NCBI GenBank assembly: GCA_031274365.1
Contig: JAISQF010000007.1
Span: 8,081-72,080, forward strand
DNA from: Elusimicrobiota bacterium
Lineage (GTDB): Bacteria; Elusimicrobiota; Endomicrobiia; Endomicrobiales; Endomicrobiaceae
Length of the DNA stretch: 64,000 bases
Direction: 5' to 3'
Shown here: in pieces, positions 1,413 to 56,747 of the stretch
Layout: each line of letters begins with the position of its first letter
Position numbering within the stretch: the first letter of the stretch is position 1
The notes under the pieces: generated by a model
Seen by the model: only the letters and a program-made list of their open reading frames with translations
Told to the model about the DNA's origin: nothing
Database searches by the model: none
Position numbers and translations under genes: made by a program

Positions 1413-2228
1413 TTACCAAGCCGGTTGATAAGCGCCCTTAAAATCTTTCAAGATAACCGCTTTAACTTCGTCGGTATGATAAGCATCGACAATTTTCTTA
1501 TAGATGGGATTATCTTTATCTTCCGTGCGAGCGGCAATGATATTTATATAAGGATTATCCTGCCCTTCTTCTTGTTTTTCAAGCAAAAGACTGTCTCTCT
1601 CGGGATTAAGTCCGGCGTCAACGGCATGCCCGCCGTTTATAAAAGCAGCTGTAACATCGTCAAGCAAACGAGGAGTTTGAGCCGCTTCAACCTGAATGAA
1701 TTTCAGATCCAATGGATTTGAAGTTATGTCGCTGACATTTGGAAGATAGCCGCCTTTTGGATGAACTTTAATTAAACCCGCAACCTGTAAAACCAAAAGC
1801 GCTCTGCCTCCATTGACCACATCGTTTGGAATCGCAATCGTATCGCCTTTTTTAAGTTCGGATATCGATTTGATTTTTTTCGAATAAAGTCCGATAGGGG
1901 CGATAATCGTTTTTCCAATAGCTGTTATTTTATAACCCTTTGTTTTAATTTCATTATTCAAATAAGCATAATGTTGAAAAGCATTAAGATCAATTTCGCC
2001 GCTTGCGAGAGCCTGATTTGGCAAAACATAATCGCCAAATTTGACTAATTCAATTTTGATACCCTCTTTTGCGAGATTCTTTTTTATAACTTCCCACTGA
2101 GGATTATTATCGCCGACTATACCTACTTTAACGACAATTTCATCCGTCTTTTTTGCGCAAGAACTAAAAGCCGCTATTCCGGCAATACCTACCGCTAAAG
2201 CTAAAACTGCAATACTTATTTTCTTCAT
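1413..2228 (-). CDS. metQ: methionine ABC transporter substrate-binding lipoprotein (MetQ/NlpA family)
   Basis: ORF 1413-2294 trimmed to MKKISIAVLALA.. (ATG 2228-2226) preceded by GGAGGAAG SD; signal peptide with FSSC lipobox; NlpA-family sequence. Confidence 0.9.
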   Translation of the reverse strand: MKKISIAVLALAVGIAGIAAFSSCAKKTDEIVVKVGIVGDNNPQWEVIKKNLAKEGIKIELVKFGDYVLPNQALASGEIDLNAFQHYAYLNNEIKTKGYKITAIGKTIIAPIGLYSKKIKSISELKKGDTIAIPNDVVNGGRALLVLQVAGLIKVHPKGGYLPNVSDITSNPLDLKFIQVEAAQTPRLLDDVTAAFINGGHAVDAGLNPERDSLLLEKQEEGQDNPYINIIAARTEDKDNPIYKKIVDAYHTDEVKAVILKDFKGAYQPAW

Positions 2229-2325
2229 ACTTCCTCCTATTTTATTTTCCATCGCTAAATAATTAGCATTTATTAAAAAGTCCGAATTTAACAAGATTTA
2301 ACAAACTGCGGGCTGTCATATTTTC

Positions 2326-2355
2326 ATTATAATTTATCTTTTTTTAACGCGTCAA
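2326..2355 (-). promoter_or_regulatory. sigma70-like promoter for metQ
   Basis: Minus strand TTGACG (2355-2350) - 18 nt - TATAAT (2331-2326). Confidence 0.5.
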
Positions 2356-2370
2356 CATTTTGTAACATCA

Positions 2371-2762
2371 CTTAACATACTAGACTTTTTATAATAATAG
2401 GTTAAATGAACTTGACAGCATAATTTAATTATTTTGTCGTGTCTTTATTTATATAAAGTTTTTTAGCGGAGACCGAGCAGCCTGAAAGGCTGGATTTTCA
2501 TAACCGTAGGCCAGCGGCCTGCGGAAAAGCCCCCCCCACGTTTTTTCTGCCTGAAAGGCAGGACTACATAAAGGCAGCACGGCACGGGGGCGCGAGCAAG
2601 CTCTGCGCAAGGTAGAGAGAGCAGATGTTATTACAATCCACGGGTCGTTGACCCGCGGTTATGAAAATCCAGCCCTACGGGCTGTAATGCAAAATAAAGT
2701 GTCGCCCCGTGCAAAACTTCTACGACAAAAACATAAGTCTATTATCTGTTTGAGGTTTTTCA
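2371..2762 (+). repeat. modular intergenic element, architecture L arm - class A core - R arm (copy 1)
   Basis: L arm and R arm near-identical to 56281-56657 and related to 5621-6466; core homologous to 5822-6127; no conserved ORF. Confidence 0.85.
2475..2715 (+). ncRNA. candidate structured RNA, class A core (unclassified)
   Basis: Perfect 15-bp long-range helix 2492-2506/2656-2670 plus at least 5 local hairpins; G+C-rich island in AT-rich DNA; strand inferred from G.T pairs. Confidence 0.4.
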
Positions 2763-2775
2763 CATTTTTATAAAA

Positions 2776-3456
2776 CTAATGTGAGATTTTTTTAATAACA
2801 TAATCTCCAAGCGTTTGAATCGCCGTTACTATAAGAACTAAAATTACAACCGTGACTATAGTCACATCCGTTTGATAACGTTGATAACCATAACGAATTG
2901 CAAAGTCTCCAAGTCCTCCGCCGCCTATCGCGCCCGCCATAGCGGTAAGACCCACTAAACTGATAAATGTAATAGTCACTCCGCGTATAATTGACGGAAT
3001 GCTTTCCTTAAAATATACGCGAAAAATTATGCTCACGGGGCTTATGCCCATAGCCAAAGCCGCTTCTATCGTTCCTCTGTCAATTTCTGCCAAAGCCGCC
3101 TGCATCTGTCTTGTGAAAAACGGCGCCGTGCCGACTATTAAAGGCACCATTGCGCCTTTCGTTCCTATCGCCGTGCCGACGATAGCTCTGGTAACAGGTA
3201 TTAAAAGAGCAAGCAAAATTATAAAAGGAACTGAGCGGAAAAAATTTATCACTTTATCAAGAATAGTCCAAAAAACCAGATTCTCCAAAATATCGCCTTT
3301 TCTTGTTACCACAAGCAAAACTCCAAAAACAATACCTATACAAAAAGATATTATTCCGCTGATAAGCATCATATAAAGAGTTTGTCCGGTGCAAAGCAAA
3401 AGCTCGGGAATTTTGTCCATAACATTTGGAAAAAGATATTCTATAATTTTAGTCAT
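2776..3456 (-). CDS. metI: methionine ABC transporter permease
   Basis: 226-aa polytopic membrane ORF, MetI-type BPD permease; overlaps metN stop by 8 nt. Confidence 0.9.
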   Translation of the reverse strand: MTKIIEYLFPNVMDKIPELLLCTGQTLYMMLISGIISFCIGIVFGVLLVVTRKGDILENLVFWTILDKVINFFRSVPFIILLALLIPVTRAIVGTAIGTKGAMVPLIVGTAPFFTRQMQAALAEIDRGTIEAALAMGISPVSIIFRVYFKESIPSIIRGVTITFISLVGLTAMAGAIGGGGLGDFAIRYGYQRYQTDVTIVTVVILVLIVTAIQTLGDYVIKKISH

Positions 3457-4486
3457 AAGATTTTATAATCTCCACTTTAACTCCTCTTTCTCTGACATAA
3501 TCAAAAGCTTTTTTCTGATTTTCTTTTGACCCGCTTATTATAAGTATCAATCCGCCCATAGGCATATCGAGAATGATGTCTAAATCCGCAAAAATTATAT
3601 TGAGTCTTATATCAAACATTGCGGAAATTGTAGAAATCAAAGCTTCCACAACGCTGGGACCGGAATAACTAAAATGAGCGAGAGTCTCGCCGGGCTTTAA
3701 TGTCGTAACAATAGAATTTTCGGCAAGCAAATCATAGATCTTATTGAGATTTGAAGTCGTCGCTATGAAATCCTTTGTAATCTTATGTTTGGGATTGGCA
3801 AATATATTAAAAACTTCGTCCGTCTCTATTACTTCACCCGCCTCCATAACCGCAACCTCATTACATATCGATTTTATTATATTCATTTCATGAGTAACAA
3901 TAACTATCGTTAGATTGAGTTTTTTATTTAAATCTTTAAGTAATGCCAAAATTGACAAAGTAGTTTTAGGGTCAAGAGCGCTGGTGGCCTCGTCGCAAAG
4001 CAAAATTTTTGGATTTGTCGCAAGAGATCTGGCTATGCCCACTCTTTGTTTTTGTCCGCCGGAAAGCTGAGACGGATATCCGTTTATCTTGCTTTCAAGA
4101 CCAACTAATTCCAAAAGCTCGGTCACTCTATCGTCTATTTGTTCTTTTGTATATCCTCTGTGCTGCAGAGGAAAAGCGATATTTTCAGCTATCGTGCGAG
4201 AACGAAAAAGATTGAAATGTTGAAAGATCATTCCTATATCTTTTCTTTTTTCTCTGATTTGAGCGGGCGAAAATTTCATCAAATCGTCTCCGTTCACTAT
4301 TACCGAACCGGAATCCGGACGCTCCAAAAGATTTATACATCTAATAAGAGTGCTTTTTCCCGCTCCGCTCAAACCGATTATTCCAAAGATTTCTCCATCC
4401 TCAATTGTTAATGAGACATCTTTTAGCGCCCTCACCGTAGAATGTTTAGTATTAAAAGTTTTGCTGACGTCTCTTAACTCTATCAA
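3449..4486 (-). CDS. metN: methionine ABC transporter ATP-binding protein with C-terminal NIL regulatory domain
   Basis: 345 aa; Walker A GLSGAGKST, signature LSGGQKQR, Walker B ILLCDE; about 100-aa C-terminal extension typical of MetN. Confidence 0.92.
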   Translation of the reverse strand: MIELRDVSKTFNTKHSTVRALKDVSLTIEDGEIFGIIGLSGAGKSTLIRCINLLERPDSGSVIVNGDDLMKFSPAQIREKRKDIGMIFQHFNLFRSRTIAENIAFPLQHRGYTKEQIDDRVTELLELVGLESKINGYPSQLSGGQKQRVGIARSLATNPKILLCDEATSALDPKTTLSILALLKDLNKKLNLTIVIVTHEMNIIKSICNEVAVMEAGEVIETDEVFNIFANPKHKITKDFIATTSNLNKIYDLLAENSIVTTLKPGETLAHFSYSGPSVVEALISTISAMFDIRLNIIFADLDIILDMPMGGLILIISGSKENQKKAFDYVRERGVKVEIIKSYD

Positions 4487-4518
4487 TTTATTTCCTCTAT
4501 TTTTTCATATAATGAAAC

Positions 4519-5331
4519 TTAAAAAGCCGGAACCACAGCTCCATTATATTTCTTTTCTATAAATTTTTTCACATCGTTTGATTGCAAACTTTTTACCAAA
4601 GCCTTAATTGCTGGATCATTTTGTCTTGACGTTTTAACCACTATTAAATTTGCATAAGGCGAATTTTTAACGCTTTCGCGCGCAAGAACCGGATCTTTTA
4701 TTCCAAATTCCAAAATTCTATTGGTGTTTGTTATATATGCGTCAAACTGATCTCCCGAGCGAACTATCAAACCTGCGTCTAATTCCTTAAGTTGAACAGG
4801 CTTTAGGAATTTTTCAATATCGTTTTTTGTGGCTTGATAAGATTTAATACCCTTTTTTAGCGTCAAAAATCCTTCTTGCTGCAATAATAAAAGCGCTCTG
4901 TATTCATTTGACGGATCGTTTGGAATAGCGATTATAGGATTTGCGGGAAGGTCCGAAAGTTTTTTGTATTTATGAGAATACAAACCAATCGGCTCTATAT
5001 GAATAGCGCCCACAGACACTAAATCAAGTTTTCTGCCCACAGACGCGGCTTCCAAAAAAGGCAAATGTTGAAAATAATTTGCGTCATAATATCCCTCATC
5101 GGTTTGAGTATTTATCAAAGTCCATTCACTCGTTACATAAATTTGCAAATCAATCCCTTCTTTAGCAAGTTTAGGTTTTACAAATTCTAAAATTTCAGCA
5201 TGGGGAACTGCGTCTGCCGCAACTTTTAACACAACCTTTTTAGCTTGAGCCGATACATCCTGATTTCCAATAAACAAAATTCCCGCAATTGAAAATGCGG
5301 CGATTGTTAATACTGATAATATTTTTTTCAT
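4519..5331 (-). CDS. metQ: MetQ/NlpA-family substrate-binding protein (second paralog)
   Basis: 270 aa, signal peptide, NlpA-family similarity to 1413-2228 product; first gene of metQNI unit. Confidence 0.88.
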   Translation of the reverse strand: MKKILSVLTIAAFSIAGILFIGNQDVSAQAKKVVLKVAADAVPHAEILEFVKPKLAKEGIDLQIYVTSEWTLINTQTDEGYYDANYFQHLPFLEAASVGRKLDLVSVGAIHIEPIGLYSHKYKKLSDLPANPIIAIPNDPSNEYRALLLLQQEGFLTLKKGIKSYQATKNDIEKFLKPVQLKELDAGLIVRSGDQFDAYITNTNRILEFGIKDPVLARESVKNSPYANLIVVKTSRQNDPAIKALVKSLQSNDVKKFIEKKYNGAVVPAF

Positions 5332-5543: not shown

Positions 5544-5604
5544 ATAACATATAAAACATACTTGTTATATATGTTATATTAAATAATTATAAAAATTTTG
5601 TCAA
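5544..5604 (-). promoter_or_regulatory. sigma70-like promoter of metQ-metN-metI with overlapping 10-bp inverted repeat
   Basis: Minus strand TTGACA (5604-5599) - 17 nt - TAATAT (5581-5576); ATAACATATA (5544-5553) / TATATGTTAT (5568-5577) perfect IR overlapping the -10. Confidence 0.55.
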
Positions 5605-5821
5605 GTTTTTGTTAAATTTTTTAATATATTAGACTTTTTATGATAATAGGTTAAGCGAATTTTATGGCATAATTTAATGACGTGTAAAAATTCAACAATG
5701 CGCGCGGATTTTTTATATTTTTTATTTTTATTGTTTTAGCTTTTCTCTTTATAGCCTTAAAGGATAGATTTCCATAACCGTGTGCGACTATGCAAGGGAC
5801 GGATTAGTATCATATGGCGCA

Positions 5822-6127
5822 CAGCCTGAAAGGCTGGATTTTCATAACCGTAGGCCAGGCCTGCGCAAGCAAAATCACCCGTCTGCTCTCTGCCTGAAAG
5901 GCAGGACCCTCTGCCTAAAAGGTAGGCTACATAAAGGCAGCACGGCAATGGGCGCGAGCAAGCTCTGCGCGAGGTAGAGGGAGCGGATGCGACTACAGTC
6001 CACGGGTCGTTGACCCGCGGTTATGAAAATCCTGCCCTACGGGCTGCAAGGCAAAATAAAGTCCAAAACAGAAAACAAGAAAACTAAAGTAAAACAAAGC
6101 CTGAAACAAAACCAAGTGCGCCCGTGC
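5822..6127 (+). ncRNA. candidate structured RNA, class A core (copy 2, with insertions)
   Basis: Same 15-bp helix (5836-5850/6018-6032) and hairpins as copy 1; one extra hairpin and an A-rich insertion. Confidence 0.4.
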
Positions 6128-6199
6128 TAAACTTATATATCAGAGATTATAGCTTTTGTCTTGTAGTGTCTTTATTTATCAAAGTTTTTTAGCGGAGAC

Positions 6200-6427
6200 C
6201 GCATTAGAGGACGAGACTATGAGTGAAATGTTTTTTTGGATTATCATTTGACGATGTGTGAGCCGCCCTTCCTTATGTCGTAATGCGCGGGGGCGGCGAG
6301 TTTGGCAAATGCCAAAAGAATGTTTGGCGTTTGCCAAAAAAACATAAACGAATGTCCGAAGCGGGCAGAGCTAAAAAACAAAAAAATATTTTAATGATAA
6401 AGAGTAAAGGCAAGTATCGTCTCTGCA
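6200..6427 (+). ncRNA. candidate structured RNA, class B core (copy 1)
   Basis: About 90 percent identical by eye to 56381-56607; pseudoknot-compatible helices and twin TTTGGC-N4-GCCAAA hairpins. Confidence 0.4.
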
Positions 6428-6514
6428 AGATTTTTACGACAAAAACACAAGTCTATTATATAGTTGTCTGTCATTACAATTTTGATGACTTGTTGAGGGA
6501 TGCAATTTTAATAC

Positions 6515-10931: not shown

Positions 10932-11618
10932 TTAAATTAAATGTCTTTTTTTCAAAATTCTTTTCGACCAAACCGCGCCGGTTATTTGTATAAATTCCAC
11001 TAAAACTAAAAGCGTTGAAACCGCGGCAATTAAAATATCCGAGCGAAAACGCTGATATCCGTAGCGCACGGCAATATCTCCAAGACCGCCGGCTCCAAAA
11101 GATCCGGCTATTGCCGTAACAGAAATTAGAGCGATAATCGTAACTGAAAAATTTCTTATCAAACTCGGCAATGCCTCGGGAACCATAACTTTCAAAATTA
11201 TATCCATATCTTTTGCGCCCATAGCTTTTACTGCTTCTATTTTTCCTTTTGAAACTTCTAAAAGACTTGTCTCGATAAGTCTTGCAAACATCGGAATACA
11301 AGTTACGGATAAAGCAATTATACAGGCCTTGGGACCGTAAGTAATACCAATAATAAGTTTTGAAATCGGCAGAGTTAAAATTATCACAATCATAGACGGC
11401 AAAGATAAAACGGCATTTGTAATTCCTCCAAAAAAAGCGTTAAAAGCGCGGCATGGACGAAGTCCGTCTTTATCCGTTACGACTAAAAGCAGACCGCATA
11501 TCAATCCAAATACGGCTGTAATCAAAGTGGCCGTCGCAGTCATATAAAGAGTGTCTAAAATTGAGGGCGCGACTATTTCCCATACCGGTTTGCTAAAAGC
11601 AAGAATAAAAGTTTCCAA
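10932..11618 (-). CDS. MetI-like ABC transporter permease (third paralog)
   Basis: 228-aa membrane ORF, paralogous to 2776-3456. Confidence 0.85.
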   Translation of the reverse strand: METFILAFSKPVWEIVAPSILDTLYMTATATLITAVFGLICGLLLVVTDKDGLRPCRAFNAFFGGITNAVLSLPSMIVIILTLPISKLIIGITYGPKACIIALSVTCIPMFARLIETSLLEVSKGKIEAVKAMGAKDMDIILKVMVPEALPSLIRNFSVTIIALISVTAIAGSFGAGGLGDIAVRYGYQRFRSDILIAAVSTLLVLVEFIQITGAVWSKRILKKRHLI

Positions 11619-11658
11619 TCAAATCTCCTTTCTTTAAGTTTTAATAAATAAAAAAACG

Positions 11659-12450
11659 CTAAATCCCCTCGCCTTTGTCAGCCCAGTCGTTACGTAAAAA
11701 ATTTTCATTTATATTTATAAATAGATTGGCCGTTTTGCTTTTCGGATTCAAAAAAATATCTCTAACTTTTCCTTTTTCCACAATCTTTCCTTCCTCAAGA
11801 ATAGCCACATTATTGCACGCATATTTAACAACATCCAATTCGTGAGTAATTAAAACTATAGTGAGCCCAAGTTTTTTATTTATATTTTTAAGCAAATCCA
11901 ATACCGCAAGAGACGAAACCGGATCCAAAGCGCTTGTCGCTTCGTCGCTTAATAAAACAAAAGGATTATTGACTAAAGCTCTCGCAATACCAACCCTTTG
12001 CTTTTGTCCGCCTGAAAGTTGTCCAGGATAAAAATCTTTTTTATCTACTATATCGACAAGTTCCAAAAGTTCAAGCACTCTTTCTTTAATTTCTTTTTTA
12101 CTCTTATTGACTATTTCTAAAGGAAAAGAAACATTCTTAAAAACAGTTCTGGAATCAAGCAAGTTAAATTGTTGAAAAATAATGCCTATTTTTTGTTTAT
12201 ATAAATTAAGTTCCGGCGGCGATAAATTTTCAATGTCATAATTGCCGACTCTTATAGATCCTCCGTCTATTTTTTCAAGACGATTGACGCATCTTATAAG
12301 AGTGCTTTTTCCAGCTCCGCTAAAACCTATAATCCCAAATATATCGCCTTCCTCAATAGATAAATCAATCCCTTTAAGAACGGGAAATTCTTTATCTTGC
12401 TGGCGAAAAGTTTTTATTACATTTTTAAATTCTATAAACGGAACAGACAT
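11659..12450 (-). CDS. MetN-like ABC ATPase lacking the C-terminal NIL domain
   Basis: 263 aa; GFSGAGKST, LSGGQKQR, LLSDE motifs; ends about 80 aa earlier than the 345-aa MetN. Confidence 0.85.
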   Translation of the reverse strand: MSVPFIEFKNVIKTFRQQDKEFPVLKGIDLSIEEGDIFGIIGFSGAGKSTLIRCVNRLEKIDGGSIRVGNYDIENLSPPELNLYKQKIGIIFQQFNLLDSRTVFKNVSFPLEIVNKSKKEIKERVLELLELVDIVDKKDFYPGQLSGGQKQRVGIARALVNNPFVLLSDEATSALDPVSSLAVLDLLKNINKKLGLTIVLITHELDVVKYACNNVAILEEGKIVEKGKVRDIFLNPKSKTANLFININENFLRNDWADKGEGI

Positions 12451-15891: not shown

Positions 15892-15947
15892 CTAAAAATA
15901 TTCCCTTTGATAAAATTCTAATCAAATCTATCCAAGCCTATTCATAT

Positions 15948-16002
15948 AATTCATATCTAATAAGTATGAATTGATTGTATATAAAATTCCCATCTTTGTC
16001 AA
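15948..16002 (-). promoter_or_regulatory. sigma70-like promoter plus AATTCATA-N9-TATGAATT operator upstream of the Fe-S/metY unit
   Basis: Minus strand TTGACA (16002-15997) - 17 nt - TACAAT (15979-15974); perfect 8-bp IR at 15948-15955/15965-15972; extra half-site 15940-15946. Confidence 0.6.
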
Positions 16003-16075
16003 TTATACATTAAATCTCTTGGCGTAATAGATTTTTCATTATAATAAATATGCGCGGCGTTCTCTTTACTTTTTT

Positions 16076-16962: not shown

Positions 16963-17045
16963 CTATTCATACTATTCATACTATTCATACTATTCATACT
17001 TGTTAAATATGAATTAAGTGTATATAAAATTTATAGCTTTGTCAA
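16963..17045 (-). promoter_or_regulatory. paralogous promoter with the same operator plus a 9-bp x4 tandem repeat
   Basis: Minus strand TTGACA (17045-17040) - 17 nt - TACACT (17022-17017); AATTCATA-N9-TATGAATA; then GTATGAATA x4 (plus strand CTATTCATA x4, 16963-16998). Confidence 0.6.
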
Positions 17046-17401
17046 TACTGTGTTAAATCTTGCAAGTTCAATATGCTAATGCAACACTCTTGATTAAAAG
17101 AAGTCAAATCTGAAACAGGCGTTATAAGCACGGCGGAACATCTAAAATCTTAAGCGAATAGATGCATAGCGACCTGAAAACACAAACCATCATGAATAAT
17201 TTGGACATTGGGAAACTGACTTAATAGAGGGGCAAGGAGCGAGCTGACTATTGATTAGTGTGGAAAGATAAAAGTGATTAACTAAAATGCGTAAAGTGCA
17301 AAACAAGCATAGCGTCAAATTTGGATGTTTTTAATTATTCTATTGCAATAGCAATGTAAATGCGCCTATTTATAATATTTACTCATTATATTTCCCATCA
17401 T

Positions 17402-18133
17402 CTACAAATATTTTTGTAAATCATTTTTAATCAACGCAATGGCATTTTTGAGAATACTATCCGTTAACGGTTTGAAATGTTTATGTATCGGATTGTTTAT
17501 ATCTCTCTCTCCTTTTAAGAATGTAACGATATTTAAGTCAACATCGTTAAAATAACTCATTATTGCATGCGTTGAATGAGCACCAAATACAGTTTTGGGT
17601 AATTCTGAATAATCCCCGCCGAGCTGGCTTTCAAGTTGAAACAAATAGCAAGAAATATGCGGATATAAAGATTTTAGCAGATGAAAATCAACGAGTATTC
17701 TTTTAAGCATTGCATTTTCCGCATAGGCTTTACATTCTATACCCATAACAAATTTTCCATCGATGAAAATATGTTTGTCAACACTTAATCCATAAACGTA
17801 ATCTGCAATATGTTCTTTAATATATTTTTTCACTTTTTCATTTTTGATATTTTCAATATATGATTTTTGTATGGGAATTTTTATTTTATTTGAATTAATC
17901 CCAAGCCGCTCTTGTTTGCCTTTTAGATTAGTCCAAGCAAGTCTGATAATTGCTTCCGTTATTGTTTCTTGCAATTTACCTTTAACCATACGGACAACTC
18001 CGCCATACGCTCTATCAGTCTGTTCTTTGGCTTTATCGTCAACAACCCTCACAACAGTTTCGTAAGTTCGGATTATTTCTTCCACACTAATGTCGGTTTT
18101 GTATGGTCTTATCATTTCTGACACTGTAAACAT
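17402..18133 (-). CDS. putative type II restriction endonuclease (PD-(D/E)XK-like)
   Basis: 243-aa ORF 2 nt downstream of a DNA methyltransferase gene; candidate catalytic motif ..VDKH..GIECKAY..; family not recognised. Confidence 0.55.
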   Translation of the reverse strand: MFTVSEMIRPYKTDISVEEIIRTYETVVRVVDDKAKEQTDRAYGGVVRMVKGKLQETITEAIIRLAWTNLKGKQERLGINSNKIKIPIQKSYIENIKNEKVKKYIKEHIADYVYGLSVDKHIFIDGKFVMGIECKAYAENAMLKRILVDFHLLKSLYPHISCYLFQLESQLGGDYSELPKTVFGAHSTHAIMSYFNDVDLNIVTFLKGERDINNPIHKHFKPLTDSILKNAIALIKNDLQKYL

Positions 18134-18135
18134 TA

Positions 18136-19266
18136 TTACTCCTCGTCTGATTTTTGATTAAACAAAGTGTCGGCTTCCTTCAAACGTTCTTTAGCGGTTT
18201 TACAATATTTTTCATCAATATCTATTCCAATAAATTTTCTATCGAGTTCTTTGGCAACTTTTGTAGTTGTGCCAGCCCCGTTGAAAGGATCAAGGATAAT
18301 ATCATTTTTATATGAAAATAATTTTATCGCTCTCCTTGCTAATTCTTCCGGAAACATTGCGTCGTGTTTATACTGTTTCATTTTTCTTTCAGGTGCAATA
18401 GACCATTTCCCATAAACCCATTTTTTAAATTCTTCAGCTGAAATATCTATATTATATTTTTCTCCGTCTTTCTTTAATGAATTTTTACAAAAAATTTCAA
18501 TGAATTCCCAAGAATATTTTAAGTATGGCGAAGACGGACTTTGCCAACTTCCCCAAGTGCAGTATTTACAATTGTAATTATTTTTTTCCCATATAATTTC
18601 ACCTTTCCAAATAAGACCTTCTTTGAAAAAGAAATTAGATATGATGTGATGTGTTGGAATGTAGTCTGAAAACAAAGGCTGGATATTAACAATAAACCGC
18701 CCGCTGTCTTTGAGAATTCTAATACACTCTCTAAAAATTGCGAACAATTTTTCAAAATAATTTTCCCAAACATTAACATCATTGGTATTATTGTAGTTTA
18801 TCCCAAAATTATATGGCGGCGAAGTTAAAATCATATCTATACAATTATCTGGTAAAGTTTTCAAAAAATCCAAAGAGTTAGCGCAATGAATTTTATTGAC
18901 TAATTTTTCAGGAACTGTATTGTTAATGTTGGGGAAATTCTTTTTATAACACTCATAACCCAAACGTTTTTTTTTATTTGCGTCTTTATTAGCAACTTTT
19001 TTCGCTTTGTTAAAACTTTTATAAACTATTTTCCCATTAGCGCTTGAGAATGAGCGTATTTTATGCAATTCTTCAACAACGCGAAGTATCAATGGGTTTT
19101 TATCAAAAGTTTCTAAAAACCTCAAATCTACCGCATCAAAATTACAACGCAATACGTCCTCGTCAATAATCATCTCAACGCCGGAAGAACTCAATATCGG
19201 CAAAGAAACATTTATATCATTTTTTTTATAAGTATTTTTCAATTCAAGCGTTTTATACATTTCCAT
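18136..19266 (-). CDS. beta-class N4/N6 DNA methyltransferase (motif order IV then I)
   Basis: 376 aa; TSPPYNF (motif IV) precedes DPFNGAGTT (motif I); about 130-aa N-terminal extension of unknown function. Confidence 0.85.
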   Translation of the reverse strand: MEMYKTLELKNTYKKNDINVSLPILSSSGVEMIIDEDVLRCNFDAVDLRFLETFDKNPLILRVVEELHKIRSFSSANGKIVYKSFNKAKKVANKDANKKKRLGYECYKKNFPNINNTVPEKLVNKIHCANSLDFLKTLPDNCIDMILTSPPYNFGINYNNTNDVNVWENYFEKLFAIFRECIRILKDSGRFIVNIQPLFSDYIPTHHIISNFFFKEGLIWKGEIIWEKNNYNCKYCTWGSWQSPSSPYLKYSWEFIEIFCKNSLKKDGEKYNIDISAEEFKKWVYGKWSIAPERKMKQYKHDAMFPEELARRAIKLFSYKNDIILDPFNGAGTTTKVAKELDRKFIGIDIDEKYCKTAKERLKEADTLFNQKSDEE

Positions 19267-56200: not shown

Positions 56201-56280
56201 TTTAACAACAACGTTAAGTATATCAAAACTTAAATCATTATACCTATTTAATCTATTTTTGCAAAGATATTGCTAAATCT

Positions 56281-56657
56281 CTTAACATATTAGACTTTTT
56301 GGATGAGAGGTTTAATAAATTAATAGCATAATTTAATTATTTTATCGTGTCTTTATTTATCAAAGTTTTTTAGCGGAGACTGCCTTAGAGGACGCGTCTA
56401 TAAGTGAAATGTTTTTTTGGATTATCATTTGACGATGTGTGAGCCGCTCTTCCTTATGTCGTAATGCGCAGGGGCGGCGAGTTTGGCAAATGCCAAAAAA
56501 ATGTTTGGCCTTTGCCAAAAAAACATAAACGAATGTCCTAAGCGGTCGGAGCTAAAAAATAAAAAAATATTATAACAATAAAGAACAAAAGCAAGTGTCG
56601 TACTTGCAGGACTTCTACAACAAAAACATAAGTCTATTATCTGTTTGAGGTTTTTCA
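56281..56657 (+). repeat. modular intergenic element, architecture L arm - class B core - R arm (copy 3)
   Basis: Arms near-identical to 2371-2762; core about 90 percent identical by eye to 6200-6427. Confidence 0.85.
56381..56607 (+). ncRNA. candidate structured RNA, class B core (copy 2)
   Basis: Same pseudoknot-compatible helices and twin hairpins as 6200-6427; helix substitutions keep pairing only on the plus strand. Confidence 0.4.
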
Positions 56658-56747
56658 GACATCAAATATTAGAGAGCATCCTTAATCCGCGCTTCTGCAT
56701 ATTGGTCTTGTCATTATCCGCCGCTGTCCCTCGCCAATTTACAAAAT

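What the first reader, a model, noticed from the sequence alone, without database searches (positions are those of the whole stretch)
5621..6466. Composite locus: one left arm, class A and class B cores in tandem, one right arm
The modules are concatenated here in this order. L arm (5621-5685). A locus-specific T-rich segment with a degenerate second copy of the class A helix strand (GATTTCCATAACCG, about 5767-5780, one mismatch to the partner at 6018-6032, so an alternative pairing is possible). Class A core. The 32-nt junction motif (6168-6199). Class B core. R arm (about 6431-6466). The junction motif precedes a core in the other loci, so it reads as the 5' boundary of a core unit, and units can be stacked. 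This mosaic organisation recalls the modular BOX (boxA-boxB-boxC) repeats of Streptococcus pneumoniae, but with much larger, highly structured cargo. The locus sits between the metQNI promoter (5576-5604, divergent) and the 3' end of the TRAP permease gene.
Basis: seen in the sequence. Interest (0 to 1): 0.7.

Follow-up and report, generated by a model that had tools for sequence, protein, structure and literature searches.

The report
Two small mobile repeats fused together
The 870-base intergenic block is most likely two copies of a lineage-specific, non-coding miniature transposon joined head to tail, each carrying a different G+C-rich hairpin-rich cargo; this is an ordinary kind of genomic parasite with unusually large structured cargo.

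Summary
The same modules occur singly at 2361-2761 (left arm, junction, class A, right arm) and at 56271-56656 (left arm, junction, class B, right arm).

The best reading is a MITE-like non-autonomous transposable element family in an Endomicrobiia-related MAG:
- The ends read 5'-TG...CA-3'.
- Flanking 5-6 bp direct repeats are present: ACATTT/ACATTT, AGATAT/AGACAT and AGTTTT/AATTTT.
- An 11-13 nt subterminal inverted repeat is conserved in all three loci.
- No ORF is conserved between copies.
- No transposase, reverse transcriptase or integrase gene lies in the 64 kb window.
- The elements are absent from the relatives' contigs that could be fetched.

The junction motif reads better as the inner part of the left end than as a core boundary.

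The composite is not one left arm plus two cores plus one right arm. A vestigial A-type right-arm start (6106-6137) lies between the cores. A shortened left end that still pairs with the right arm probably follows it (6124-6160). This fits two whole elements fused with eroded inner ends.

The G+C-rich cores fold strongly, and better on the + strand. Substitutions between copies show no selection for pairing, and no Rfam family matches. No relative of any module was found outside this window.

Novelty: new member of a known kind. Interest is modest.

The parts
5576..5604 (-). Sigma-70-like promoter of the metQ2-metN-metI operon (TTGACA-17-TAATAT). Its -35 box abuts the element's left flank.
   Evidence: The same arrangement occurs at the other two loci, within 1 nt. 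The rpsB -10 and -35 are kept in relative L088, where the sequence diverges right after the -35.
5604..5609 (.). Left copy of the putative target-site duplication, AGTTTT.
   Evidence: (boundary scan on the other two loci) and direct reading. It matches 6478-6483 at 5 of 6 positions, provided the right end is taken 2 nt longer than in the other loci.
5610..5678 (+). Left end (L arm) of the A-type element. It starts with TG and contains the subterminal inverted-repeat copy 5624-5636.
   Evidence: (I16: 13 nt, 92% complementary to 6449-6461).
5679..5751 (+). Locus-specific segment: a possible degenerate junction, then a T-rich tract. 5721-5744 is complementary to the A-rich tract 6065-6088.
   Evidence: I2: 24 nt, 79%. 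The resemblance to the junction is not statistically supported.
5752..5788 (+). Degenerate partial copy of the left inverted-repeat arm of class A.
   Evidence: D11, 76%; score 38, 0 of 500 shuffles.
5822..6062 (+). Class A core, 57% G+C. A multi-hairpin domain closed by a 15-bp helix; internal 36-nt inverted repeat at 5822-5857 / 6011-6046.
   Evidence: I1.
6063..6105 (+). A-rich locus-specific spacer that can pair with the T-rich tract on the other side of class A.
   Evidence: I2.
6106..6137 (+). Vestigial start of an A-type right arm (CAAAACCAAGTGCGCCCGTGCTAAACTTATA, compared with 2690-2722).
   Evidence: score 32, 0 of 500 shuffles.
6124..6160 (+). Probable shortened left end of the B-type element (TGCTAAAC...TATATCAGAG...CTTTTGTC). 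It keeps the two segments that pair with the right arm and has lost the hairpin between them.
   Evidence: I3: 6136-6160 against 6438-6462, 25 nt, 72%; D4; the alignment to the L terminus is not significant on its own. Inferred.
6161..6199 (+). Junction motif. Read here as the inner part of the left end; invariant in the three loci.
6200..6404 (+). Class B core (about 41-44% G+C over 201 nt). It has a 16-bp hairpin at 6301-6338 and a G+C-rich helix GCCGCCCUU/GGGGGCGGC. The + strand fold has 9-10 G-U pairs.
   Evidence: I7.
6405..6477 (+). Right end (R arm) with subterminal inverted-repeat copy 6449-6461. It ends ...CATTAC(A).
6478..6483 (.). Right copy of the putative target-site duplication, AATTTT.
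   Evidence: Direct reading with the boundary rule.
2361..2761 (+). Reference single A-type element, flanked by ACATTT (2355-2360) and ACATTT (2762-2767).
56271..56656 (+). Reference single B-type element, flanked by AGATAT (56265-56270) and AGACAT (56657-56662).

Best explanation
The window carries a lineage-specific family of miniature, non-autonomous transposable elements (MITE-like), about 390-400 bp each. The 'arms' are the transposon ends. They read 5'-TG...CA-3' and carry a conserved subterminal inverted repeat, ATAYTAGACTT / AAGTCTATTAT. By a hand alignment, the left end looks like the reverse complement of the right end plus two A+T-rich insertions. On that reading the junction motif is the inner part of the left end. 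The ends would be recognised by a transposase supplied in trans; this step is inferred, because no such gene is in the window. Insertion duplicates 5-6 bp of target. Between the ends sits one of two unrelated G+C-rich, hairpin-rich cargo segments (class A or class B), which are non-coding. All three insertions lie in the same orientation. Their left end sits within 1 nt of the -35 box of a minus-strand promoter. Locus 5610-6478 is an A-type element truncated in its right end, joined to a B-type element that keeps only a shortened left end. Together they behave as one unit bounded by an intact outer left end and outer right end. The cores may well be transcribed and fold as RNA on the + strand, but nothing here shows that they are selected for that.
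For: Shown directly:
- Three dispersed copies share arms but not cores.
- An unbiased scan of 35 x 35 boundary offsets and six repeat lengths picks one solution. At that solution loc1 is flanked by ACATTT/ACATTT and loc3 by AGATAT/AGACAT. This is exactly where similarity between the loci ends. The scan-wide P is about 0.012 by shuffling. Loc2 gives AGTTTT/AATTTT.
- An 11-13 nt subterminal inverted repeat occurs in all three loci at matching distances from the ends.
- No ORF is conserved between copies. Class A copies differ by indels of 1, 2 and 20 nt.
- Elements are absent from related genomes. The metI-metQ gap is 38 nt in relative L001, against 482 nt here. Relative L088 keeps the rpsB promoter but diverges right after the -35. 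No similarity was found in 1.3 Mb of loci from relatives.
- Substitutions between the two class B copies fall on predicted paired and unpaired positions in the proportion expected by chance: 18 of 30 in paired positions, with a paired fraction of 0.62. This is what neutrally decaying repeat copies would show.
- Remnants of inner ends lie between A and B.
Against: - No transposase, reverse transcriptase or integrase is present in the roughly 60 ORFs scanned in the window, so the mobilising enzyme is unknown.
- The terminal inverted repeats are weak: about 64-68% over 28 nt by hand alignment. Gapped local alignment of the left end against the reversed right end gives only P = 0.03 to 0.29.
- The duplication at loc2 needs a 2-nt shift of the right boundary.
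- Only three loci are available, so copy number, polymorphism and empty sites could not be checked.
- The cores are better conserved than the arms in loc2: B core about 94% (alignment), left arm 77%. They are far richer in G+C (41-57%) than the arms (24-38%). Plain junk cargo does not explain either point.
Confidence: 0.6

Rival explanations
1. Class A and class B are two genuine structured non-coding RNA genes transcribed from the + strand. The arms are a shared expression cassette: a promoter in the left arm, and 5' and 3' segments that pair to close the RNA. The copies arose by duplication. This can coexist with mobility.
For: - The cores are G+C-rich islands (41-57%) inside 24-38% G+C arms, in a 36% G+C window.
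- The folds are far more stable than shuffles: z -6.7, -5.2 and -4.4.
- The + strand is more stable than the minus strand, by 13.5 kcal/mol for both class B cores and by 4-5.5 kcal/mol for class A. Class B has 9-10 G-U pairs on + against 1-3 on minus.
- The shortened left end 6136-6160 keeps both segments that pair with the right arm.
- A locus-specific T-rich / A-rich pair replaces the arm helix around class A in loc2.
- A possible + strand promoter, TTGYCA/TTGCAA-18-TAAYAT, would start the RNA at the first paired segment. The scan tool found it only in loc2; in the other loci it was read by eye.
Against: - No Rfam family matches. The best hit is 17 bits against a threshold of 45.
- There is no clear conserved promoter or terminator.
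- With two copies per class there is one compensatory change in total.
- Substitutions show no avoidance of paired positions.
- The strand asymmetry is partly a base-composition effect: z-scores differ much less than energies.
- No homologue was found in any other genome or metagenome searched.
Confidence: 0.2
2. One reading: a BOX-like modular repeat. One pair of arms encloses a variable number of core units, each introduced by the junction motif, and the units can be stacked freely.
For: The junction motif directly precedes a core at 2434-2475, 6161-6199 and 56342-56380. The outer arms of the composite are intact, and the whole block is bounded by a 5 of 6 direct repeat (one search rule applied).
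Against: - Class A in the composite has no intact junction.
- Remnants of a right arm, and probably of a left arm, lie between A and B.
- No arm-only, A-A or B-A arrangement exists elsewhere in the window.
Confidence: 0.1
3. The blocks are host cis-acting elements of the minus-strand operons. They act as terminators or insulators between an upstream gene and the next promoter, or as upstream promoter elements, and are kept because of that role.
For: - Each block fills the space between the stop codon of a minus-strand gene and the -35 box of the next minus-strand promoter, in register within 1 nt.
- Terminator-like hairpins on the minus strand occur inside both cores.
- A different G+C-rich 56-nt tandem repeat occupies the same place upstream of rpsB in a relative.
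Against: - The hairpins are poor intrinsic terminators: short U tracts, and not conserved between classes.
- Close relatives manage without the blocks.
- Two unrelated cores would have to serve the same role.
- The folds favour the opposite strand.
Confidence: 0.07
4. The composite is an assembly artefact: a false join of repeat copies in a metagenome-assembled genome.
For: Repeats do break or misjoin short-read assemblies. A relative's contig (L088) ends 20 nt beyond the rpsB -35 box, at the corresponding position.
Against: The class A and class B copies in the composite differ from the single copies by about 20% and 10%. The composite also contains unique T-rich and A-rich segments found nowhere else in the window. 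It therefore cannot be built from the other two loci.
Confidence: 0.03

Closest known systems
Bacterial MITEs (for example Correia/NEMIS of Neisseria, RUP of Streptococcus pneumoniae, ERIC/IRU of enterobacteria)
   Same: Small, non-coding, multi-copy and intergenic. Ends are inverted and able to pair. Short target-site duplications. Often sit next to promoters and can be nested or fused.
   Different: These elements are larger than most (about 400 bp). Their terminal inverted repeats are weak and asymmetric: by hand alignment, the left end looks like the right end plus two insertions. They carry two unrelated G+C-rich structured cargos. No parent insertion sequence is known.
BOX elements of Streptococcus pneumoniae (boxA-boxB(n)-boxC)
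   Same: Mosaic of modules. The outer modules can pair, the number of inner modules varies, and the elements are intergenic and non-coding.
   Different: No sequence relation was tested or is expected. The inner modules here are 200-240 nt of two unrelated kinds, rather than 45-nt boxB repeats. The one multi-core locus retains remnants of inner arms, which argues for fusion of whole elements rather than variation in unit number.
Asymmetric-ended DDE transposons with TG...CA termini and 5-bp duplications (Tn7-like, Mu-like, IS3/IS481-type) and their miniature derivatives
   Same: TG...CA termini, 5-6 bp duplication, a longer and more widely spaced left end against a compact right end, and uniform orientation of the three copies.
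   Different: No repeated transposase-binding sites could be defined in the arms. No transposase gene lies nearby. The resemblance is recalled from general knowledge, not tested against reference ends.
G+C-rich structured non-coding RNAs found as islands in A+T-rich genomes (the class of candidates that G+C and intergenic-size screens recover)
   Same: G+C-rich, strongly folding intergenic islands in an A+T-rich genome, more stable on one strand.
   Different: No match to any of 4227 Rfam families. No covariation support. No homologue outside this genome. The islands are embedded in transposon-like ends.

Membership tests
MITE (miniature inverted-repeat transposable element) | Small size with no transposase or other conserved ORF | tested here: met
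   The single elements are 401 and 386 bp. The six-frame comparison of copies shows no conserved ORF. Indels in class A are not multiples of three.
MITE (miniature inverted-repeat transposable element) | Target-site duplication flanking each copy | tested here: met
   ACATTT/ACATTT, AGATAT/AGACAT and AGTTTT/AATTTT. The best solution of the unbiased boundary scan has a scan-wide P of about 0.012. Loc2 needs a 2-nt shift.
MITE (miniature inverted-repeat transposable element) | Terminal inverted repeats | tested here: inconclusive
   An 11-13 nt subterminal inverted repeat occurs in all three loci, with TG...CA termini. The full 28-nt ends are only about 64-68% alike by hand alignment, and gapped alignment gives P = 0.03-0.29.
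MITE (miniature inverted-repeat transposable element) | Multiple dispersed copies and absence from orthologous sites | tested here: met
   Three loci in 64 kb. Absent from the metI-metQ gap of L001 and from 1.3 Mb of loci from relatives.
MITE (miniature inverted-repeat transposable element) | A related autonomous element with the same ends in the genome | not testable with these tools
   The window holds only housekeeping genes. The rest of the MAG could not be fetched.
BOX-type modular repeat | Variable number of inner units directly stacked between one pair of terminal modules | tested here: not met
   The only multi-core locus has arm remnants between the cores, and class A there lacks the junction.
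Any Rfam RNA family | Score at or above the family's gathering threshold | tested here: not met
   Only a tRNA elsewhere in the window passes. The best hit in the locus is gyrA RNA at 17.4 bits against 45.
IS200/IS605-derived palindrome-associated elements and REP/BIME | No target duplication; short G+C-rich palindromes; insertion 3' of a fixed tetranucleotide | tested here: not met
   Flanking duplications are present. The units are 10 times longer than REP. No Y1 transposase is in the window.
Type I toxin-antitoxin locus | Conserved small hydrophobic ORF with a ribosome-binding site | tested here: not met
   The 10-codon ORF at 6220 loses its start codon in the loc3 copy. The 33-codon minus-strand ORF shows 3 non-synonymous changes against about 1 synonymous, and no clear ribosome-binding site by eye.
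Retron non-coding RNA | Adjacent reverse transcriptase gene | tested here: not met
   No reverse transcriptase domain is found in any window ORF scanned.

The most novel reading that the evidence does not exclude
The elements are mobile cassettes that spread structured RNAs. A transposon-like pair of ends supplies a start site and a closing stem. It carries either of two unrelated, functional, G+C-rich RNA domains (A or B), inserted in a fixed orientation right next to promoter -35 boxes. On this reading the family would be a vehicle for disseminating two new classes of structured RNA, and perhaps for acting on the neighbouring promoters.
Probability: 0.15. Interest if true: 0.65.

Novelty: new member of a known kind. 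Interest (0 to 1): 0.35.

Why it matters
If the reading is right, this is the first described repeat family of its lineage, an uncultured Endomicrobiia-related bacterium. It would be useful in three ways:
- as a marker of recent transposition in a small, gene-dense genome;
- as a likely cause of contig breaks in assemblies of this group;
- as a caution against calling every G+C-rich folding island in an A+T-rich genome an RNA gene.

Three features deserve a look if the whole genome becomes available. The position is constant, hard against the -35 box of three different promoters. The orientation is uniform. Two unrelated structured cargos sit inside the same ends. Together they hint at a targeting rule or at a selected effect on transcription.

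Tried and rejected
**Searches for relatives, all empty or chance hits**
- Right-arm 24-mer in 185,579 species genomes: 0 hits.
- Junction 19-mer in JGI metagenomes: 4 unrelated chance hits, in coding or high-G+C sequence.
- Class A 19-mer in viral contigs: 1 chance hit inside a gene.
- Whole locus by blastn against phages and plasmids: nothing.
- blastn and nhmmer of all three loci against 87 fetched loci (1.3 Mb), including 9 Endomicrobiia rpsB regions: nothing.
- Six-frame peptide pieces of both cores used as a protein query, hoping to catch spurious ORFs called on related elements: no hit among 5.8 billion proteins.
- The source contig itself is not in the contig index.

**Ideas considered and dropped**
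- Riboswitch or leader of metQ or rpsB: the elements lie upstream of the promoters, not in the leaders.
- Retron: no reverse transcriptase.
- Type I toxin: no conserved ORF.
- REP/BIME or IS200/IS605 derivative: target duplications are present.
- Group II intron or self-cleaving ribozyme: no Rfam signal even at E <= 10.
- Class A as a separate nested MITE: it has a 36-48 nt inverted repeat but no flanking duplication.

**A point I withdrew**
I first took the conserved GTCAA/GCAAA at the left edge to be part of the element. Comparison with L088 shows it is the resident -35 box.

**Apparent wobble covariation**
The apparent 'wobble covariation' in the junction / right-arm helix and in class B is explained by base composition and by the direction of transitions. 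I do not count it as evidence for RNA selection.

Full report
**1. What is in the sequence**

The window is 36% G+C and is packed with minus-strand housekeeping genes. These include two metQ genes, metI, metN, a TAXI/TRAP transporter, Cys/Met enzymes, his genes, and the run rpsB-tsf-pyrH-frr-uppS-cdsA-dxr-rseP-ispG. MetQ2 and S2 are 100% identical to proteins of an NCBI 'MAG: Elusimicrobiota bacterium' on a 76-kb contig. The nearest S2 relatives, at 79-89% identity, are Endomicrobium and Endomicrobiellum MAGs.

Three of the few large intergenic gaps hold related non-coding blocks, all on the + strand:
- 2351-2762: left arm, junction, class A, right arm.
- 5596-6476: the finding.
- 56257-56657: left arm, junction, class B, right arm.

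Similarity is far above chance: 0 expected matches for the junction and for the right-arm patterns, and E values of 1e-61 for class A and 1e-115 for class B.

**2. The boundaries, and what the arms are**

Comparison with a syntenic relative (L088, rpsB-tsf-pyrH-frr...) shows that the rpsB -10 and -35 boxes are ancestral. The sequences diverge directly after the -35. The GTCAA/GCAAA at the left edge of the repeat alignment is therefore the resident promoter, not part of the element. In all three loci a strong minus-strand promoter-like site ends within 1 nt of the element.

I scanned all combinations of left and right boundary offsets (35 x 35) and repeat lengths 4-9 on the two well-aligned loci.
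- The top solution places the elements at 2361-2761 and 56271-56656.
- Their flanks are ACATTT/ACATTT (6 of 6) and AGATAT/AGACAT (5 of 6).
- A result this good arises in 1.2% of shuffled flanks.
- It coincides with the point where similarity between the loci stops.
- The same rule gives AGTTTT (5604-5609) and AATTTT (6478-6483) for the composite, if its diverged right end is 2 nt longer.

The ends then read 5'-TG...CA-3'; with the CA counted inside the element, the duplication is 5 bp. An 11-13 nt subterminal inverted repeat, ATAYTAGACTT / AAGTCTATTAT, is present in all three loci at matching distances from the ends.

By hand alignment, the left arm plus junction is the reverse complement of the right arm with two A+T-rich insertions. 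The matching segments are TG..AAA..C.C, ATAYTAGACTT, TTTTGTCGT, AAGTTTT and GC.GG.GAC. Gapped local alignment supports this only weakly (P 0.03-0.29). On this reading the arms are transposon ends, and the junction motif is the inner part of the left end.

**3. Anatomy of the composite**

- The outer left end (5610-5678) is intact up to GCATAATTTAAT. Then comes locus-specific sequence.
- A T-rich tract follows, with 5721-5744 complementary to the A-rich tract 6065-6088 (I2).
- 5752-5788 is a degenerate partial copy of the class A left repeat arm.
- 5822-6062 is the class A core.
- After an A-rich tract, 6106-6137 is a significant remnant of the A-type right-arm start (0 of 500 shuffles).
- From about 6124 the sequence TGCTAAACTTATATATCAGAG...CTTTTGTC resembles a left end that has lost its internal hairpin. 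6136-6160 is 72% complementary over 25 nt to the right arm 6438-6462 (I3).
- Then follow an intact junction (6161-6199), class B (6200-6404) and the right end.

The locus is best read as an A-type element truncated in its right end, fused to a B-type element with a shortened left end. I could not tell whether this arose by adjacent insertion followed by deletion or by illegitimate recombination. Neither simple nested-insertion model leaves the expected leftover arm or duplication.

The copies in the composite differ from the single copies by about 20% (A) and 10% (B), and the composite has unique segments. It is therefore not an assembly chimera of the other loci.

**4. Are the cores RNAs?**

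For:
- The cores are G+C-rich (A 55-57%, B 41-44%) against arms of 24-38%.
- Folds are much more stable than shuffles: z -6.7, -5.2 and -4.4.
- The + strand folds better than the minus strand, strongly so for class B. The difference is 13.5 kcal/mol in both copies, with 9-10 G-U pairs against 1-3.

Against:
- No Rfam family matches, even at E <= 10.
- No conserved promoter or terminator is evident.
- Only one compensatory pair is seen in all.
- The 30 substitutions between the two class B units fall on predicted paired positions 18 times, where 18.6 are expected from the paired fraction.
- The wobble-preserving changes are what transitions on the A/C-rich strand of a helix always give.

The folding potential is real, but selection for it is not shown. 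An inverted-repeat-rich transposon would fold just as well.

**5. Distribution**

No relative of any module was found in any of the following:
- 185,579 species genomes, by exact pattern.
- JGI metagenomes.
- Viral contigs.
- Phage and plasmid collections.
- 1.3 Mb around rpsB in 80 genomes.
- The nearest relatives' contigs.
- The protein database, searched for spurious ORFs.

In relative L001 the metI-metQ gap is 38 nt, against 482 nt here. Most Endomicrobiia relatives have a short A+T-rich region upstream of rpsB. The family appears confined to this sparsely sampled lineage.

**6. Verdict**

The better-supported mechanism is transposition of miniature elements followed by fusion of two of them, not stacking of cores behind a junction motif. 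I put this at about 0.6.

A genuine structured-RNA role for the cores, possibly in addition, stands at about 0.2. The unexplained features are the constant position against promoter -35 boxes, the uniform orientation, the high conservation and G+C content of the cores, and two unrelated cargos within the same ends.

Noticed in passing
window 2350-2360, 5599-5609, 56259-56270: All three elements have their left end within 1 nt of the -35 box of a strong minus-strand promoter-like site (metQ, metQ2-metN-metI, rpsB), and all lie in the same orientation. This could be a target preference or the result of selection. It is not explained.
   Followed up: partly
L089 1617-1800 (also L090 1-60): In a relative (S2 80% identical), a different G+C-rich tandem repeat lies immediately upstream of the rpsB promoter: period 56, 3.3 copies, 89% matches. 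That is the same place as the class B element here.
   Followed up: partly
L088 1-20: The contig of the syntenic relative ends 20 nt beyond the rpsB -35 box, at the position where the element begins in this window. A repeat may break that assembly there.
   Followed up: no
window 15938-16017 and 16981-17060 (minus strand): An 80-nt block, 78% identical, lies upstream of two minus-strand genes: a 695-aa Cys/Met PLP enzyme and a putative cyclase. It holds TTGACAAAG...TATATAC followed by repeats of TATGAAT/ATTCATA, which looks like a shared promoter with an operator. Rfam shows nothing there.
   Followed up: partly
window 5822-5857 / 6011-6046 and 2478-2525 / 2637-2684: Class A carries its own 36-48 nt inverted repeat. 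Each arm is itself a small palindrome plus a 15-nt helix strand, so it can form either two hairpins or one long helix. There are also three alternative AAAGGCAG / CUGCC pairings. No flanking duplication surrounds it.
   Followed up: partly
window 6220-6252 (+) and 6250-6351 (-): Two small ORFs lie inside class B. One is MSEMFFWIII, with a good ribosome-binding site in loc2 only. The other is a 33-codon MFFWQTPN... on the other strand. Neither is conserved in a way that suggests coding.
   Followed up: yes
window 17402-19266: An N6/N4 DNA methylase gene lies next to a 243-aa ORF with no Pfam match, followed by a RadC-like gene. This is possibly a restriction-modification pair. It is the only non-housekeeping patch seen in the window.
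   Followed up: no
window 1413-5331: Two MetQ paralogues flank metN-metI. A second, related ABC transporter pair lies at 10932-12450 (blocks of 74-80% DNA similarity, families D5, D17 and D18). The class A element sits between metI and the downstream metQ, which are only 38 nt apart in relative L001.
   Followed up: partly
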